Shown here one piece after another: positions 13,595-35,780 of a stretch of DNA of 35,780 nt. The position numbers and the translations under genes were made by a program. The stretch comes from a virus (Duplodnaviria > Caudoviricetes): IMG/VR virus record IMGVR_UViG_3300030372_002552, positions 1 to 35,780 of that record, one strand, 5' to 3'. Each line of letters starts with the position of its first letter. The first letter of the stretch is position 1. Below the pieces are notes generated by a model. It did not search any database. It saw only the letters and a program-made list of their open reading frames with translations, and was not told the origin of the DNA.

Positions 13595-13972
13595 ATGAAT
13601 TATGCTCAAATCTTAAATGAGGCCCATGAGGCAGGTATGGTGGCTGGAAGTGCCAAAGTTCCTGCTCCTATGGTCGTTACAGAGCGTGCTAATCCTGTTG
13701 ATGATAGTAGCGAGGTCAAAAACCAGTGGGTTGTTCCTTCAGGTGTTTGTGGCTTTGCTTATGTCATTACAAATGAGCATGGCAATGGCAAGTTCGTTAA
13801 GTATCTTAAAAGTATTGGCGAAGGTCGCAAGTATTATTATGGTGGTCACTATGCCAAGTACGTTAGAGAGTTCGGCCAGAGCTATGAGCAAAAGATGGCT
13901 TATGCAGATGCCTATGCTCAAGTGCTCCAGAATTATGGGATCAAGGCTTATTCAGATGGGAGGCTCGACTAA
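13595..13972 (+). CDS. Conserved hypothetical phage protein (alternative in-frame start at 13550)
   Basis: SD GGAGGT. CGFAYV...QSYEQKMAYADAYAQVL..YGIKAY..GRLD motif. Confidence 0.8.
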   Translation: MNYAQILNEAHEAGMVAGSAKVPAPMVVTERANPVDDSSEVKNQWVVPSGVCGFAYVITNEHGNGKFVKYLKSIGEGRKYYYGGHYAKYVREFGQSYEQKMAYADAYAQVLQNYGIKAYSDGRLD

Positions 13973-14510: not shown

Positions 14511-14555
14511 TTGCATCGTATGTATTCTGTATGTTATATTTGTTATAGATATGAT
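14511..14555 (+). promoter_or_regulatory. Island promoter P4
   Basis: TTGCAT-N18-TATATT-TGTTATAGATATGAT. Confidence 0.85.
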
Positions 14556-18436: not shown

Positions 18437-18527
18437 CGTAAACCTCGCAATGCTCTTTACAAGCACCGCATATATACGTTTCAATACTAATCCAGACAGG
18501 TGCATCGCAACAGTTACTCCTCTTCAT
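18402..18527 (-). CDS. 41-aa Cys-rich mini-protein (not in ORF track)
   Basis: MKRSNCCDAPVWISIETYICGACKEHCEVYDDEEEEEDKSG; SxCCxA...CxxCKEHC metal-binding motif; GAGG SD. Confidence 0.7.
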   Translation of the reverse strand: MKRSNCCDAPVWISIETYICGACKEHCEVYDDEEEEEDKSG

Positions 18528-18807
18528 TTTGCCCTCGTATATCGCCTTTCAGCCTTGGTACAAATATCCTTCGATGTGGATTGTAACTTATTTGTATGTA
18601 TTTGCATGCCTTTAATTTACTAATCCAGTTAGATACAGTTACGTCAGTCACATCATAACGCTTGGCGAACCACCCATTGCTCGCAAAACAAAAGCCATGC
18701 TTATTGGACAAAGCCTTTATTTCTCCGTACAAGAGCCGTGCACCAAGCGGCAGTCTGCCATCGTACCTTATTATGGCAGGAACTATGATGTAATAGTTGT
18801 TCTTCAA
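18514..18807 (-). CDS. Short replication-initiator-like winged-HTH protein
   Basis: YYIIVPAIIRYD..L...ARLLYGEI.ALS...GFCFASN.WFA..Y.V...TVS.WIS.L is typical of phage replisome-organiser N-termini; TTG start. Confidence 0.85.
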   Translation of the reverse strand: MKNNYYIIVPAIIRYDGRLPLGARLLYGEIKALSNKHGFCFASNGWFAKRYDVTDVTVSNWISKLKACKYIQISYNPHRRIFVPRLKGDIRGQNEEE

Positions 18808-18810
18808 CGA

Positions 18811-19752
18811 TTAAAATGGTAAATCGTCATCATCCAAATCATGCTTTTCAAACTCATCAGAAAGATTAGCGGATGATCCTTTACTTTGAGGTATTTCTTC
18901 AAACTCGTACTTAACCTCACCATTAGGCAACGTTTGCTCTGCAATCCATCGTTCCACATCAAGATTAAATTTACCTGATGGCATTGCCACCAAGTCTTTT
19001 ATCTTGCTCTTAGGAACCCAGTAAGGCTTTGTAGCCTCAAAGTCACCTGTGTCACCTTTAAAACTGCTTGGTATCAGTAAATATGATTTATCAGATTCTC
19101 TAACCTTGTTAAGATTTTTAATTCTGACGTATTCATTTTCTGGAGGCGTACCCTGCTTTAAATCAGACTTAGGCTTTAACTCTTGGCCCTCGCCACGATC
19201 TTCTGCCTGCTTTGCCAGCTTTTTGATCTTCTCTTGAGCCTCATTGACTTCGGTGGGAGGCTGGGACTCAGTGACTTGAGAAGATGTAGTTGTGAGCTCA
19301 CTGTTGTCCTGCTGTGCGGAACTGTCCCAGCCTATAGGTTTCCAATCTCTTTCAACATAACCATTGCTTAAATCGGCCCAGTATTGTTTCATTGAATATA
19401 AGTCACGACCAATACCATAATGAACTGCGGCTCTTTTAAATGCATCTGATACTTGGCCTTTCTCAGCATCTACCTCTGTTTCCATGCCACAATCAGCTTT
19501 GGTTGTACTGGACCCATCTGGCCATTTAATCGTGAGCCTGCAAAACAAATGATTCCCAACAACATCATATTCTGTTGACCAGTTCTCTTTGCCTACAGCC
19601 TCATCAAGCCTGTCCATTACAAACCTTGCATCCACATAAGCAAGCATACAGGCTTTTGTATTACTTTTATTTTTAAACCCTACCCTAAAGTTAATACGCT
19701 CTTTTGGTGTAGGTGCAGATAGTGCATCTATTACTTCTTTATTTTTTGACAT
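18811..19752 (-). CDS. Rad52/Sak-family single-strand annealing protein with C-terminal extension
   Basis: LAYVDARFVMDRLDEAVG..NW...KADCG...EKGQVSDAFKRAAVHYGIGRDLY; ends in DDDDLPF. Confidence 0.9.
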   Translation of the reverse strand: MSKNKEVIDALSAPTPKERINFRVGFKNKSNTKACMLAYVDARFVMDRLDEAVGKENWSTEYDVVGNHLFCRLTIKWPDGSSTTKADCGMETEVDAEKGQVSDAFKRAAVHYGIGRDLYSMKQYWADLSNGYVERDWKPIGWDSSAQQDNSELTTTSSQVTESQPPTEVNEAQEKIKKLAKQAEDRGEGQELKPKSDLKQGTPPENEYVRIKNLNKVRESDKSYLLIPSSFKGDTGDFEATKPYWVPKSKIKDLVAMPSGKFNLDVERWIAEQTLPNGEVKYEFEEIPQSKGSSANLSDEFEKHDLDDDDLPF

Positions 19753-19767
19753 TTTTATCCTTTTTAT

Positions 19768-20103
19768 TTATAAATCCAATAACCTTTGCCCATCATCATC
19801 AAGCAACCTTTCTTTTGCATCCTCAAGTTTTTTAATTACGTCAACAATGGCCGCTACACGGCTTTTGAGATCTGCAATGCTTGCATTTAACTCACTTCCT
19901 TTTCTGGCGTAATAAAAACCCCTTGGGCCACTTCCCACTGGATGACAATCAAGACGTAATTGCCTAATTGTCTGGCGTACTTCAACATCATTCATGTTAA
20001 ACTGCCGTTGTATTCTTTTACTGGTTATTGGAAATTCTTCACTACTATCTAATTTTAATAAGTTTAAAACTCGATCTTTGTAATAATCAGCCGTATCAGT
20101 CAT
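19768..20103 (-). CDS. Winged-HTH DNA-binding protein
   Basis: PITSKRI...DVEVRQTIRQLR...PVGSGPRGFYYA motif. Confidence 0.75.
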   Translation of the reverse strand: MTDTADYYKDRVLNLLKLDSSEEFPITSKRIQRQFNMNDVEVRQTIRQLRLDCHPVGSGPRGFYYARKGSELNASIADLKSRVAAIVDVIKKLEDAKERLLDDDGQRLLDL

Positions 20104-20284
20104 CTGATTGTAAATGCTGATCTATATATTCTTGCATAAAGTTTTTTAACACTTCATTGCCAGATTTATTATTCAGTTTACATACCGCTAAAAATTTTGA
20201 TCTCAGCACTTGATCAAGACCGATAATTTGAAATCTATGATCTTTTACTGTAGTGCTTGGATCAACTTTTATTTGCTTTTTCAT
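20096..20284 (-). CDS. Ribbon-helix-helix (Arc/ParG-like) regulator
   Basis: FQIIGLDQVLRSKFLAVCKLNNKSGNEVLKNFMQEYI fits the beta-alpha-alpha RHH pattern. Confidence 0.7.
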   Translation of the reverse strand: MKKQIKVDPSTTVKDHRFQIIGLDQVLRSKFLAVCKLNNKSGNEVLKNFMQEYIDQHLQSDD

Positions 20285-20292
20285 GTTGTTCC

Positions 20293-20481
20293 TTATGTTG
20301 TTAATATTATTATAATTACGACCAAAGTACCCACAAATATCATCCTATGATCGCCTCTCATTTCAAACTTTTGATCTATGATACTGTCAATAAAAATGTA
20401 CAGTAATGGTACACATACTGTAGTGATCAAAAGTGACAGCGACCAGATAAAGAAGTTTGCGATTATTTCATATATTTGCAT
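20293..20481 (-). CDS. Small two-TM membrane protein, probably leaderless
   Basis: Two hydrophobic segments; ATG lies 6 nt after TATAAT. Confidence 0.6.
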   Translation of the reverse strand: MQIYEIIANFFIWSLSLLITTVCVPLLYIFIDSIIDQKFEMRGDHRMIFVGTLVVIIIILTT

Positions 20482-20487
20482 GTACCT

Positions 20488-20516
20488 ATTATATTTATGT
20501 TATAATTATGATGCAA
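20488..20516 (-). promoter_or_regulatory. Sigma70-type promoter of the early/replication operon
   Basis: Minus strand reads TTGCAT-N17-TATAAT-AGGTAC-ATG. Confidence 0.8.
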
Positions 20517-20540
20517 GTTATATTTAACATAATTATTTAC

Positions 20541-20569
20541 TTGCTTTTAATTGTTATAAGTGTTAGATT
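20541..20569 (+). promoter_or_regulatory. Divergent promoter for the histone island
   Basis: TTGCTT-N17-TAGATT with TGn; contains TGTTATAAG-TGTTAGA. Confidence 0.65.
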
Positions 20570-20614
20570 ACTATGTAGTTGTTTTTTGATAATGATAAAA
20601 CACAAGGAGCCAAA

Positions 20615-20851
20615 ATGAGCGACATAGTGATGGAAGTCACTAAAGAGTACGCTGGCGATGGTGCTTTTTGTAATGGATGCCAAGAAAAAGGTAATGACTA
20701 TATGAGATTAGTTCATACCTTTTACTGTGTGAAGGTAAACATCATAAATGAGCACGGCACTTCTGAAATCTTTATGTGTGAAAGATGCATAAAGGGTGCA
20801 AAAAAAGAATCAGAAGAGCAAGGCATGTTCAGCGTAAAAGAAACAGGTTAA
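20615..20851 (+). CDS. Zn-finger hypothetical protein
   Basis: SD AAGGAG; CNGC...CERC. Confidence 0.7.
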   Translation: MSDIVMEVTKEYAGDGAFCNGCQEKGNDYMRLVHTFYCVKVNIINEHGTSEIFMCERCIKGAKKESEEQGMFSVKETG

Positions 20852-20860
20852 TGTAAAACA

Positions 20861-20895
20861 GGGAGGCAGTGCCAAACCAAAAGTCACTGCCTCCC
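20861..20895 (+). other. Perfect 11-bp GC-rich hairpin upstream of the histone gene
   Basis: GGGAGGCAGTG-13nt-CACTGCCTCCC. Confidence 0.7.
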
Positions 20896-20916
20896 AAAAT
20901 GGAGCGTAAAAAGTTA

Positions 20917-21225
20917 ATGTCTTACATCCAAAAAACAAAAATAAAAGCCCTTGTTCGAGATCAAGGATACAGGATAAGCCCTGAATCATTTGATGGCATA
21001 AATCGAGCTGTAGAGGGCTTAATAAAAGGCATGCTTGATAAGGTTGAGGCTGATGGTATGAAAACGCTTATGGTGCAACATACAGGCGTAAACAAAGCAC
21101 CAAGGCAATCATCAGGTAGCTGTAAAAAGTGTGTAAACATAAAACCAGAGTTTTTAAAGTTTGCCAGAAGTACACAAGTATGGTGTCACGATAAGGCTTA
21201 TAAACTCTCAAAAAACGTAAAGTAG
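20917..21225 (+). CDS. Histone-fold protein (bacterial/phage type) with C-terminal CxxC and helix
   Basis: YIQKTKIKALVRDQGYRISPESFDGINRAVEGLIKGMLDKVEADGMKTLM follows the bacterial histone pattern (K.K.L....G...S.E......A.E.L.......ADG.KT.M). Confidence 0.75.
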   Translation: MSYIQKTKIKALVRDQGYRISPESFDGINRAVEGLIKGMLDKVEADGMKTLMVQHTGVNKAPRQSSGSCKKCVNIKPEFLKFARSTQVWCHDKAYKLSKNVK

Positions 21226-21236
21226 AAATACTTTAA

Positions 21237-21297
21237 ATCATGCCCTTAGATAGCCAAACAGCAGGAGGGATTTTGCTCGGCTTTCTTTGGGCATGAT
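21237..21297 (+). terminator. Long interrupted hairpin between convergent genes
   Basis: ATCATGCCC/GGGCATGAT, AGCC/GGCT and GCAGGA/TTTTGC stems capped by a GGGA (GNRA) loop. Confidence 0.6.
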
Positions 21298-21300
21298 ATT

Positions 21301-22347
21301 TTACCAATGCTCTATAAGATCCATTTTAGTGCTCCAGACTTTATGGATCGTGTGACTGGAACTGAACGTATCACTGTCAACCCTGAATAATCCATAATCC
21401 CCATTATCTGTACTGTCTTTATTTATACTAAATAGGAATGGATTTCTTTGGCCTAAGACTTTATTATAAAATGAATTATGTAAATTTGTTGTATCATAAA
21501 ATTTACTATTGTCTGCGTTGCCCATATCCTCTGGCCAGATATTAGTATCTACAATATGACTAAACGATAGGCTATGCCTCATCCTTCCATAACGCTGTTT
21601 AAAAACCTTCGTATCTTGGTCTGGGCCTATTGCTGTATGCCAAGGCAATGTATGATCCCAAACAGGATTTCCCAAGTGTGTAGTATTTGCATACATGTTG
21701 CCGCCTAAAGATCTTTGTACTGTAGTCCCATCATATTCAATATCTGTACTTAATGACAAATCCATACTTGGAAAATCAAAGTATTCGCCAAACATAATAC
21801 TTCCTATTCTTGGATCTTTTAAAAAGTTTTGACCAGTTCCATTTTCGTCAGTAATAGTAATTCTTAAAAATTGATTATTGCTTTCCTGTGTAGGCCATGT
21901 GATTAGTGTCCATCCATCTTCTGCTGGATCTATTTCCCCAGCACTGTCATTAGCCGCCGCATTAACTACTTTAGTATGGTTGCCAGTAGTACTAATTGTT
22001 GTTGGCGATGAAAAGTTTGATGCATCATCAGTCTGTACTACAATCACAGCATCAGCCGCCGCAAAATTATGATTCATTATAGCTAAAAAATTACTTTCAG
22101 CTAAAGCATCTGTTGAGTTGCCTGTATTATACTGGATAATAAAAGACTGATTTTCTTTTTCAATCCTTGTAACGTTTTGAGGTCGTGCATCAAATATATC
22201 TGACTTGCTACCTTCTTGAAAAGTAACAGCAGTTGATCCGTCATCTTGTAACATTGAAATATCGCTTAATGATCTCCAGCCAGTTGCTAAATCAAAAGTA
22301 ATAAGGTCAACGTATGCCCTTGGTTGTGTAAATCTATTATAACTCAT
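21301..22347 (-). CDS. Tail tip / minor tail protein
   Basis: 348 aa, last gene of the tail operon, beta-rich. Confidence 0.65.
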   Translation of the reverse strand: MSYNRFTQPRAYVDLITFDLATGWRSLSDISMLQDDGSTAVTFQEGSKSDIFDARPQNVTRIEKENQSFIIQYNTGNSTDALAESNFLAIMNHNFAAADAVIVVQTDDASNFSSPTTISTTGNHTKVVNAAANDSAGEIDPAEDGWTLITWPTQESNNQFLRITITDENGTGQNFLKDPRIGSIMFGEYFDFPSMDLSLSTDIEYDGTTVQRSLGGNMYANTTHLGNPVWDHTLPWHTAIGPDQDTKVFKQRYGRMRHSLSFSHIVDTNIWPEDMGNADNSKFYDTTNLHNSFYNKVLGQRNPFLFSINKDSTDNGDYGLFRVDSDTFSSSHTIHKVWSTKMDLIEHW

Positions 22348-33848: not shown

Positions 33849-35780
33849 TTATTCTGTAATAAAAGTACCAGAAAAAAATACTTCCATATTATCATTTTCA
33901 CCAAAATCATCACCCATATTGCTTTCTTCATTACTGTTAGCTCCTTGAAAAAATAATACTGTTGAATTTGGTAATAAAGTTGCGTTAATTACATCATCAG
34001 TACCAAGAGAAGAACCTGTTACTAAAACTGGAAATACTGACCTTAAATTTGTCGTATTTTTAGAAGTGAAAGGCATACCACTTATTCCAATATTATCATC
34101 TACTCTTGCATTATCAGCGTTCCACTTTAAATAAATTTGGAAATGGCACATATTGCCTATTTTTGTATATGCTCCAGTTTGAGTAACATTTGTAGAGTTT
34201 GTCATATCATCAGAGTTTTGATAATAAATAGCTGGTGTAAAAGTGCCTTCTTCATAATTATCTAATGTATTAACATCTCCACTTGGGTTCGCACTTGCAT
34301 CATCTGGAAAGTTTATACCTGTTGTAACATTCACTCCAGCACAATGAACTGTAGCACCAACATCTTCTGCCATATAAACATCAGTACAATCCCCATTACC
34401 AATCGTTGCTGTGTTGTCTCCTTTTCCAGTTACGTGGTATCCAATTACTATTTGATTTTCTCCACCACCACCTCCATTTGGAGCCGCAGTATGACCTATA
34501 ATTGTATTATAATCTCCAGTTGAAAGATCACCGCCAGAATCTGCTCCTACTGCTGTATTTTTTGTTCCAGACGTTACAGCAGTTAAAGATTGATACCCGA
34601 CACCTGTGTTACCATCAGCCGCAGACGTTAAATTAGCATCAAGAGCCGCATATCCAATGGCTACATTCTCACTTGCTCCAGCATTTGTACCAGACATAGA
34701 AGAATTACCAATCGCTACATTTCTTTTATTTTCAGAAGATGTAGATGCTCCACCTAATGCTCCATAACCAAAAGCAACATTATCCTCACCTGTAGTTAAT
34801 TCATCCATTGCTTGGAATCCTACAGCCGTGTTCCTTGCTCCAGATGTCAGCGAACTAAGGGCTTCGTAACCAATTCCAATCGTACCTGTCATTCCTTGAG
34901 CATTACCTGTTGCATCTACAGCATTATAACCTATCGCAATATTTCCCACAAAATCTATGTTGTTATTCAAAAGGTCTCCACCAAGTAAGGCGTTTGTACC
35001 GATAGCAATATTGCCATCTATTTCTGTAGTAGAACGATAACCTTCAACAGCACCCATTGCATCAGTACCTATTGCGATGTTATGATTTCCACCATTAGCT
35101 GGTGCCGCTACTCCACCTGAACCATCTCCACCTTGCAAAGCATCCATAGAATTATGGCCAAGTGCAATGTTATTAGTTCCTGTTTGCATTAAGCTCATAG
35201 ACTGATACCCTATGGCTAAGTTTTTAGCCCCAGATGTCAATACATTAAGTGCTTCATACCCAATAGCTACTGTACCAATAGCAGTAGCATCAACAAGTGC
35301 ACTTGCCATACAAGAGTGACCTATCGCAACTGTCCTTTGGGCACTTGTTGTTGTATGACCAGCAAAGTCTCCCACAAACGTATTTAAAGTACCTACAGTC
35401 AAATCTTCTCCGCTACGAGAACCAAGTGCGACATTAAAGTCACCTGTTGTAATTGATTTTAAAGCTTGGTAGCCTACTCCAGTATTATAAGTGGCATCAT
35501 TCATAGAGCCAGTTGCAATACTTTCACCAACAAAAACATTATAGTTACTACCAGCATCCAATGATGTGGCTGTACTTTTTCCAAAGATAGTATTTGATGT
35601 ACCACTATCATTATTAGAGAGTGAGATTCTGGAGTTGTTGTCAATTATAAAATTTGTTGTACTTTCATTTGTTAAAAATCTATGCTGACTTGATGTACCA
35701 GTAGTTGTATAATCTATATGCCCACCAGATACTGCATTTAATAAATCAATATCAGAATTGCCTGTTGAACCAAATCCAAA
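33849..35780 (-). CDS. Fibre protein C-terminal part, allele B (open at the right edge; joins 3120-1255 on circularisation)
   Basis: The frame continues to 35780 in register with allele A. NxAIGxxA beta-helix repeats and a terminal LDNYEEGTFTP...YTKIGN...GMPFTS domain. Confidence 0.88.
   Translation of the reverse strand, partial: FGFGSTGNSDIDLLNAVSGGHIDYTTTGTSSQHRFLTNESTTNFIIDNNSRISLSNNDSGTSNTIFGKSTATSLDAGSNYNVFVGESIATGSMNDATYNTGVGYQALKSITTGDFNVALGSRSGEDLTVGTLNTFVGDFAGHTTTSAQRTVAIGHSCMASALVDATAIGTVAIGYEALNVLTSGAKNLAIGYQSMSLMQTGTNNIALGHNSMDALQGGDGSGGVAAPANGGNHNIAIGTDAMGAVEGYRSTTEIDGNIAIGTNALLGGDLLNNNIDFVGNIAIGYNAVDATGNAQGMTGTIGIGYEALSSLTSGARNTAVGFQAMDELTTGEDNVAFGYGALGGASTSSENKRNVAIGNSSMSGTNAGASENVAIGYAALDANLTSAADGNTGVGYQSLTAVTSGTKNTAVGADSGGDLSTGDYNTIIGHTAAPNGGGGGENQIVIGYHVTGKGDNTATIGNGDCTDVYMAEDVGATVHCAGVNVTTGINFPDDASANPSGDVNTLDNYEEGTFTPAIYYQNSDDMTNSTNVTQTGAYTKIGNMCHFQIYLKWNADNARVDDNIGISGMPFTSKNTTNLRSVFPVLVTGSSLGTDDVINATLLPNSTVLFFQGANSNEESNMGDDFGENDNMEVFFSGTFITE
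35235..35780. repeat. Copy 2 of the ~546-bp repeat (see 709-1254)
   Basis: Last 150 nt are identical to 1105-1254. Confidence 0.95.

What the first reader, a model, noticed from the sequence alone, without database searches (positions are those of the whole stretch)
20917..21225. Phage-encoded histone-fold protein with a CxxC tail on its own transcription unit
Seen: the N-terminal ~55 aa align by eye with Bdellovibrio-type bacterial histones (K.K.L..G..S.E...A.E.L...ADG.KT.M). A linker, CKKC and a predicted helix follow. The gene sits in a two-gene plus-strand island divergent from the replication operon and is flanked by strong hairpins. Known: histone-fold proteins occur in some bacteria and have been noted in metagenomic phages, with little known about function. 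Inference: it may coat or bridge phage DNA, shield it from nucleases, or remodel the host nucleoid. The canonical R..T...D loop is altered (MKTLMVQH), so its DNA binding may differ.
Basis: partly seen in the sequence, partly recalled or inferred. Interest (0 to 1): 0.8.

Follow-up and report, generated by a model that had tools for sequence, protein, structure and literature searches.

The report
Phage histone of the VTTHFP family
This phage gene encodes a small histone-fold protein of an already catalogued but bench-untested phage family; it is likely made early in infection and predicted to grip and bridge DNA, and it carries a conserved cysteine pair, not mentioned in the main text of the two papers on the family, that likely clasps zinc between chains.

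Summary
The gene is real and the histone call holds: residues ~4-56 match HTkC, HBb/Bd0055 and HLp by sequence and by predicted fold; a variable linker, C69xxC72 and a 24-residue helix follow. But the family is described: 'phage histones' (Schwab 2024), apparently the same as VTTHFP (Liu 2025), and a 79%-identical relative (L001) is listed as VTTHFP in Liu's supplement. Both papers already propose a tail-to-tail, DNA-bridging tetramer; no experiment on the family appeared in the passages read. Added here: (1) CxxC is kept in 26 of 30 diverse members (20-59% identity) with no other conserved ligand, as expected of half of an inter-chain zinc site; (2) the gene sits behind a conserved sigma70-type promoter, so probably early rather than virion; (3) 9 of 10 HBb DNA contacts are kept or conservatively changed, and the altered loop loses mainly the structural RD clamp. 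The hairpins exist but do not define a histone-specific unit: the upstream one is absent in relatives, the downstream one follows the tail gene. The oligomer could not be modelled. The scan had no look-alike sequence, only a tail-less phage histone elsewhere.

The parts
20917..21225 (+). Phage histone / VTTHFP gene, 102 aa
20926..21084 (+). alpha3-type histone fold (residues ~4-56): helices 6-15 and 24-45, one-turn alpha3; K8, K10, S21, R30, K49, T50
21085..21120 (+). Variable linker (residues 57-68; 10-39 aa across the family, low pLDDT)
21121..21132 (+). C69-K-K-C72, conserved two-cysteine motif (predicted half of an inter-chain zinc site)
21145..21219 (+). C-terminal amphipathic helix (residues 77-101; conserved A83, Q87, A94), predicted oligomerisation helix
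   Evidence: role from PMC11390915 and PMC13681535
20901..20904 (+). GGAG ribosome-binding site, 12 nt before the ATG
   Evidence: sequence
20540..20569 (+). sigma70-like promoter cTTGCTT-17-TAGATT with extended -10 TG, heading the two-gene island
   Evidence: consensus match and conservation only
20488..20517 (-). Back-to-back sigma70-like promoter heading the minus-strand replication operon
20615..20851 (+). 78-aa upstream gene with CxxC...CxxC, no family hit; this slot holds other genes or none in relatives
20861..20895 (.). 11-bp hairpin between the two genes; U-rich tail only on the minus strand; not conserved in near relatives
21237..21297 (.). Long hairpin between the histone stop and the convergent tail-type gene; C-rich loop (CCCTCC) on the minus strand shared with relatives

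Best explanation
The gene encodes an alpha3-type histone-fold protein of the phage histone / VTTHFP family that is likely made early in infection and is predicted to act as a zinc-clasped, tail-to-tail tetramer that bridges and condenses intracellular phage DNA. Steps: (1) shown: fold, family, purifying selection, conserved CxxC and amphipathic tail helix. (2) Inferred from promoter consensus and gene order: host RNA polymerase transcribes it soon after DNA entry. (3) Inferred from HBb: two chains form the handshake dimer and grip the DNA backbone without sequence preference through K8, K10, R14, R19, S21, K49 and T50. (4) Predicted in the two papers and not modelled here: the tail helices of two dimers bundle, so that two DNA-binding heads on flexible linkers can hold two duplexes, as MJ1647 does. 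(5) Inferred here: each chain gives two cysteines to a shared Zn(Cys)4 site at the base of the bundle, which stabilises it. (6) Least certain: the target is the incoming and replicating phage genome, which is thereby organised and partly shielded.
For: Fold. Family: K10, K49 and R30 and the missing RxTxxxD match Schwab; K5/K9/R29/K48 of Liu equal K6/K10/R30/K49 here; 10 of the 30 loci were seen under VTTHFP in Liu's mmc5, the other 20 not looked up there. DNA face: of 10 HBb contacts mapped by the alignment, 5 are identical, K16>R and S9>T are conservative, T8>K and N22>R become basic, R57>Q is lost; K49 is kept in 29 of 30 diverse members. Tail: hydrophobic periodicity peaks at 98-100 degrees; A83 27/30, Q87 24/30, A94 24/30. 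CxxC: 56 of 61 close and 26 of 30 diverse members; C73, C90, H91 and H55 are each at or below 15 of 32, so a chain has only two conserved ligands. Early: strict promoter motif upstream in 11 of 31 loci against 2 of 313 background windows; looser motif in 7 of 10 tail-to-early gaps against 1.8 expected; the same promoter class heads the other + strand islands of the window (6 hits, shuffle mean 0.2). MJ1647 needs its C-terminal domain to bridge DNA (PMC11894785).
Against: No oligomer model was obtained here. In Schwab's source data phage-histone pLDDT falls from 74-88 in the first block to 62-78 in later blocks, which I take to be the multimers. The fold is only weakly basic (net +2; family median +2.5) and the basic tail of this member (+7) is not typical (median +2). 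CxxC is missing in 8 of 38 tree rows, 2 of which keep a Cx5C pair, so it is dispensable in some lineages. The promoter motif was written by eye from 4 of the loci, 4 more hits are near copies or homologous regions, and 20 of 31 loci lack the strict motif. Host, timing and DNA target are unknown.
Confidence: 0.5

Rival explanations
1. It is an early host-takeover factor: it coats or cross-links the host nucleoid, or pairs with and poisons a host alpha3 histone, rather than serving phage DNA.
For: It shares a promoter class with the window's other + strand islands of small genes, which include DUF2958 and a weak LPD29 match. Nonspecific backbone binding as in HBb could not tell host from phage DNA. 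The RD clamp is lost.
Against: No host is known (one search shows empty host fields for 5 related contigs), so no host histone could be tested. The gene keeps a fixed place at the tail-end/early junction in 18 of 31 loci, unlike the variable genes around it.
Confidence: 0.2
2. It is a local transcription or replication regulator that loops or occludes the AT-rich divergent promoter region, as NF-Y/NC2-type histone folds do (recalled), and times the early-to-late switch.
For: It lies at a conserved back-to-back promoter pair next to an RHH-like and an HTH-like gene; a two-headed tetramer suits looping; the charge is low.
Against: No sequence-reading element is evident and the HBb-type contacts are backbone contacts. 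In L010, L012, L014, L017 and L027 it sits at the far end of a long operon with no motif within 1300 nt.
Confidence: 0.12
3. It bends or wraps DNA as a dimer or face-to-face tetramer like HBb, HLp or HTkC; the CxxC-helix tail binds a protein partner, and the cysteines serve as a redox or Fe-S site or a helix cap, not as a zinc clasp.
For: The closest solved structures are benders and wrappers. Many close members have CCN or a further Cys at 90. Some lineages lost CxxC.
Against: The tail helix has a broad conserved hydrophobic face with small Ala residues, as in helix bundles, and both papers predicted tail-mediated tetramers.
Confidence: 0.12
4. It is a virion core protein that condenses the packaged genome.
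For: Giant-virus histones are used for packaging (PMC11390915 passage); in 10 loci the gene is co-oriented downstream of the tail genes.
Against: In the window and 7 other loci it is on the strand opposite to the tail genes; in the 10 co-oriented loci a 200-426 nt gap, with a promoter motif in 7, intervenes. Terminase-portal packaging loads essentially naked DNA (established knowledge).
Confidence: 0.06

Closest known systems
[quoted passage not shown] 2025, PMC13681535)
   Same: alpha3 fold + flexible loop + long C-terminal helix; K5/K9/R29/K48 equal K6/K10/R30/K49; the 79%-identical L001 protein and 9 more related loci appear in its VTTHFP table or alignment.
   Different: No difference in architecture. 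The main text has 0 hits for cysteine, zinc, CXXC, promoter or virion, although its alignment holds the CxxC; Fig. S5 (mmc1.pdf) could not be read.
Phage histones (Schwab et al. 2024, PMC11390915; type example A0A2E7QIQ9)
   Same: Caudoviral and metagenomic; alpha3 fold lacking RxTxxxD; conserved K10, K49 and an arginine; C-terminal helix predicted to tetramerise and bridge DNA.
   Different: The sequence of A0A2E7QIQ9 was not available for direct comparison; Liu describes it as having a longer linker and a more extended tetramer. Main text: 0 hits for cysteine or CXXC; Supplementary Figs 22-23 could not be read.
HBb/Bd0055 of Bdellovibrio bacteriovorus (PDB 8FVX, 8CMP, 9EZZ)
   Same: Same fold (28-30% identity over ~55 residues, rmsd 1.6-2.3 A); 9 of 10 DNA contacts kept or plausibly replaced.
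   Different: HBb is a tail-less dimer that bends DNA and has the R51-D58 clamp (here M48, H55).
Face-to-face histones HTkC (9F2C) and HLp (9QT0)
   Same: Best sequence hit (HTkC, E 4e-5) and best fold hit (HLp, rmsd 1.0 A over 52).
   Different: They tetramerise through the fold and wrap DNA; no linker, CxxC or tail helix.
MJ1647 of Methanocaldococcus jannaschii
   Same: Works-like model: histone dimers joined by C-terminal helices bridge DNA, shown by deletion (PMC11894785).
   Different: Canonical (not alpha3) fold, two extra helices, cellular; no cysteine clasp is mentioned in the passage read.
Rad50 zinc hook (recalled)
   Same: Two CxxC from two chains share one zinc at the end of helical segments in a DNA-tethering protein.
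   Different: Unrelated protein; analogy only, not tested by any search.

Membership tests
VTTHFP / phage histone | N-terminal alpha3 histone fold (short alpha2, 3-4 residue alpha3) | tested here: met
   Helices 6-15 and 24-45 and a 3-residue turn at 53-55; top structural hits are all alpha3 histones
VTTHFP / phage histone | Flexible linker followed by a long C-terminal helix | tested here: met
   pLDDT dip at 61-70, helix 77-100/101
VTTHFP / phage histone | Conserved K5/K9/R29/K48 (Liu) or K10/K49 plus arginine (Schwab) | tested here: met
   K6, K10, R30, K49
VTTHFP / phage histone | Lacks the RxTxxxD motif | tested here: met
   MKTLMVQH in place of RKTVMARD
VTTHFP / phage histone | Sequence clusters with listed members | tested here: met
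   L001 (79%), L002, L003, L004, L023 in the VTTHFP metadata; L008, L009, L013, L021, L025 in its alignment
VTTHFP / phage histone | Encoded by a tailed dsDNA phage | tested here: met
   Terminase, capsid and tape measure genes in the window; virus record
VTTHFP / phage histone | Predicted homotetramer through the C-terminal helices | not tested
   The complex job never ran because the queue was full
VTTHFP / phage histone | DNA bridging (proposed for the family, not shown) | not testable with these tools
   Needs bench assays
Bacterial dimer histones (HBb/Bd0055) | RD clamp (R51-D58) and no added domain | tested here: not met
   M48 and H55; 46-residue tail
Bacterial dimer histones (HBb/Bd0055) | DNA-backbone contacts in alpha1, l1 and l2 | tested here: met
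   9 of 10 kept or plausibly replaced by alignment: works-like, not membership
Face-to-face histones (HTkC, HLp) | Tetramer through the folds using conserved R48/N52 of the profile | not tested
   Profile numbering could not be mapped and no complex model was obtained
ZZ histones | N-terminal ZZ zinc finger with C4 and C2H2 sites | tested here: not met
   Only one C-terminal CxxC; no Pfam hit

The most novel reading that the evidence does not exclude
An immediate-early phage histone whose tetramer is held by an inter-chain Zn(Cys)4 clasp, a zinc-hook-like joint on a histone, builds a bridged phage chromatin around the entering genome that shields it from host nucleases and can be loosened by metal or redox state.
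Probability: 0.25. Interest if true: 0.75.

Novelty: new member of a known kind. Interest (0 to 1): 0.4.

Why it matters
Liu calls VTTHFP the most abundant cluster of phage histone-fold proteins, yet the passages read hold only predictions for it. The conserved cysteine pair and the early promoter turn a vague proposal into direct tests (zinc stoichiometry, cysteine and tail mutants in bridging assays, timing). If right, small tailed phages use their own histone during the intracellular stage, not for packaging, and a histone oligomer is held by a shared metal. As a discovery of a phage histone, the finding is not new.

Tried and rejected
Tetramer prediction: the queue was full and the job never ran, so there is no result either way. 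Pfam and PHROGs: no hit for the protein. Cultured phages (50,697 records, tblastn): 3 weak rows at E 0.4, rejected. GTDB genome scan: 2 loci, both rejected on reading as a Fur-like protein and a solute-binding-like protein (labels from my reading); the scan finds only close patterns, so it does not show absence from bacterial chromosomes. Context of distant members: 3 single-protein scans found no locus, so the promoter argument rests on members of 34-79% identity. Expression: no RNA holder listed. Rfam: 0 matches in window 19500-22000 and in 10 loci. The stock promoter scan missed the island promoter and found 3 sites against 6.1 expected. Atlas: the window protein could not be searched; homologue P0010 gave unnamed viral clusters and weak histone clusters at 0.84. 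Hosts: empty for the 5 related contigs seen; none of my loci in the part of the host table read. Longer starts (GTG 20869, ATG 20899) rejected: they lie in or just behind the hairpin, and most homologues begin at MSYIQ, though a few are called at 108 aa. Fused or shorter forms were not searched. Supplements not seen that may show the CxxC: Schwab MOESM1 (Figs 22-23), Liu mmc1.pdf (Fig. S5) and mmc4.

Full report
Observation. Window 20917-21225(+) encodes 102 residues. The window is a tailed-phage record (terminase, capsid, tape measure, endolysin). The ORF has 62 homologues at E<=0.001 among 64 candidates, 42-95% identical, and evolves under purifying selection: against 6 relatives pN is 0.06-0.28 and pS 0.55-0.98 in residues 1-56, while the linker is nearly unconstrained. 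Pfam and PHROGs do not know it.

Fold. phmmer against the PDB gives HTkC (E 4e-5), HBb (6e-4) and HLp (8e-3) for residues 4-55; a profile of 32 diverse members improves these to 6e-7, 1e-6 and 2e-5 and reaches archaeal histones. Two AlphaFold2 monomer models (pLDDT 81.9 and 88.6) show helices 6-15 and 24-45, a one-turn alpha3, a low-confidence linker and helix 77-100/101. Foldseek's first nine rows are HLp, HBb and HTkC chains (rmsd 1.0-2.3 A), none at E<=0.001.

Family. Schwab et al. 2024 (PMC11390915; I saw passages, and searched supplementary files 1 and 3) define 'phage histones': alpha3 fold without RxTxxxD, conserved K10, K49 and an arginine, and a C-terminal helix predicted to tetramerise and bridge DNA. 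Liu et al. 2025 (PMC13681535; I read parts 1-3 of 7, searched the whole main text, and mmc2, mmc3, mmc5) define VTTHFP with K5, K9, R29, K48. The window protein has K6, K10, R30, K49. Of the 30 viral loci found with my alignment, 10 were seen under VTTHFP in mmc5, among them the 79%-identical L001; the other 20 were not looked up there. Membership is therefore about as sure as sequence allows. Five searches for further work on the family listed only these papers, their preprints, the HLp paper (abstract and one section seen) and unrelated work; the library lacks most subscription journals.

DNA-binding face. Hu et al. 2024 (PMC11317129, passages) list ten HBb DNA contacts. By the alignment K10, K12, S24, K52 and T53 are identical (K8, K10, S21, K49, T50), K16>R14 and S9>T7 are conservative, T8>K6 and N22>R19 become basic, and R57>Q54 is lost. 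The R51-D58 pair, a structural clamp, is M48-H55. So the altered loop does not by itself imply a different way of binding DNA. Against strong binding, the fold's net charge is only +2 (family median +2.5), within the -1 to +6 of 11 single-domain relatives.

The CxxC. It is present in 56 of 61 close sequences of 90 residues or more (2 fragments dropped) and in 24 of 28 full-length representatives that I picked by hand from the 71 hits (single and tandem folds, fragments and repeats left out); in the 30-row alignment (20-59% identity) C69 and C72 are each 26 of 30, on a par with the best-kept fold residues. The linker before it varies from 10 to 39 residues, but the motif stays fixed four residues before the helix. 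No third or fourth ligand is conserved (C73 4, C90 13, H91 10, H55 15 of 32); an acid at 92 is kept in 26 of 30 and could be an alternative ligand. In a 38-row tree the 8 rows without CxxC need 3-4 changes (at least 2 by starred branches) and all deep branches carry it; the root is midpoint only, so 'ancestral and lost' is an inference, and 2 of the 8 keep a Cx5C pair. Two conserved cysteines per chain at the start of an oligomerising helix are most simply read as half of a shared Zn(Cys)4 site, as in the Rad50 hook (recalled). In an antiparallel four-helix bundle two helix starts would meet at each end, which fits one zinc per end; this is geometry, not a model. The tail helix is amphipathic (peak at 98-100 degrees) with conserved A83, Q87 and A94. 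Neither main text mentions cysteine or CXXC; the figure supplements with the logos could not be read. The tetramer prediction never ran because the queue was full. Schwab's source data give phage histones lower pLDDT (62-78) in the blocks that I take to be multimers, so the tetramer itself is only moderately supported.

Context. The island holds a 78-aa CxxC...CxxC gene and the histone. A strict motif CTTG(A/C)-N-17-TAnnnT occurs only twice in the 35.8 kb, back to back at 20517(-) and 20540(+), and within 900 nt upstream of the histone in 11 of 31 loci against 2 of 313 background windows. The motif was written from 4 of these loci and 4 more are near copies or homologous regions; L021, L023 and L025 are the independent hits, and 20 loci lack it. 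The divergent pair aligns in 6 loci. In L002, L003, L008 and L019 the histone is the first gene behind the promoter. In 18 of 31 loci the gene lies at the end of the tail-type genes: convergent in 8, and in 10 co-oriented behind a 200-426 nt gap, 7 of which hold a looser promoter motif (1.8 expected). In five near-related loci it ends a long operon with no motif within 1300 nt. The window's other + strand islands of small genes start at promoters of the same class (6 hits, shuffle mean 0.2). These are consensus matches, but together they point to early expression by host polymerase and away from a virion role. No integrase was seen among the ORFs scanned; host unknown.

Hairpins. Both fold far better than shuffles. 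The first lies between the two genes, is followed by AAAAUGGAG on the + strand and by UGUUUU on the minus strand, and is absent in near relatives: a local feature, perhaps a stop for tail read-through or a stabiliser of the histone message. The second follows the stop of the last tail-type gene and keeps a C-rich loop while the stem changes (15 of 18 loci; 8 of 15 and 7 of 14 consensus pairs with double changes on the two strands); it may end both transcripts but travels with the tail gene.

Verdict. A true, well-conserved member of a described, untested family. Most likely an early, zinc-clasped, DNA-bridging tetramer acting on phage DNA (0.5); rivals are host-nucleoid takeover (0.2), promoter regulator (0.12), bender with a partner-binding tail (0.12) and virion protein (0.06). 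The scan's notes held no look-alike sequence and one tail-less phage histone called early on another genome, which I did not check. Interest 0.4.

Noticed in passing
window 21237-21297 (minus strand); L005:4590-4665, L007:5445-5525, L013:470-548, L020:3028-3105, L021:5398-5480, L023:5238-5315, L004:4602-4685, L011:5808-5890: A structured element right after the last tail-type gene in 15 of 18 loci: stems vary freely, the loop keeps an anti-Shine-Dalgarno-like CCCTCC or GCTCC. In the co-oriented loci it also holds TATTCAC, whose complement GTGAATA lies 103-114 nt downstream just behind the early promoter (L020 has TATTCGC with GCGAATT). Either an antisense RNA against the early leader and its ribosome-binding site, or inverted DnaA-box-like sites (consensus recalled). 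No Rfam match; the strand could not be told.
   Followed up: partly
window 5667, 12822, 13510, 14511 (+): Four copies of a promoter cassette TTGCA-N-TGTTATAnT followed by TGTTATAGATATGAT head the + strand islands of small genes (DUF2958 at 14551, weak LPD29 at 13972); TGTTATA recurs in both promoters of the divergent pair and may be an operator.
   Followed up: partly
window 35631-35780 and 1105-1254: The last 150 bases repeat positions 1105-1254 exactly, inside a long minus-strand tail-fibre-like frame: the genome probably closes there, and 1-1104 may be an alternative fibre end or an assembly branch.
   Followed up: no
window 20096-20284 (-), 19768-20103 (-), 20293-20481 (-): The first genes of the divergent operon, a two-helix membrane-like 62-mer, an RHH-like 62-mer (my reading) and a 111-aa phrog_2113 protein, are kept in 5-6 loci and may be the regulators of the promoter pair.
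   Followed up: no
window 20615-20851 (+): 78-aa gene with CNGC and CERC, zinc-ribbon-like, no Pfam or PHROG hit and no homologue among the fetched loci; the slot between promoter and histone is variable.
   Followed up: no
window 18514-18807 (-): Only the 97-aa HTH_36 part of a replication-initiator-like protein is encoded here; homologues of the same short length occur in several loci, so it is probably not a break.
   Followed up: no
P0045, P0059, P0062, L019, L022: A subgroup has a different tail helix with a 30-residue basic extension (KYDPxxATKxGRxNNF) on the same fold and CxxC.
   Followed up: no
L010, L012, L014, L027 upstream of the histone: An unrelated or distantly similar G+C-rich hairpin (GCAGGGAA...TTCCCTGC) also sits just before the histone's ribosome-binding site.
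   Followed up: no
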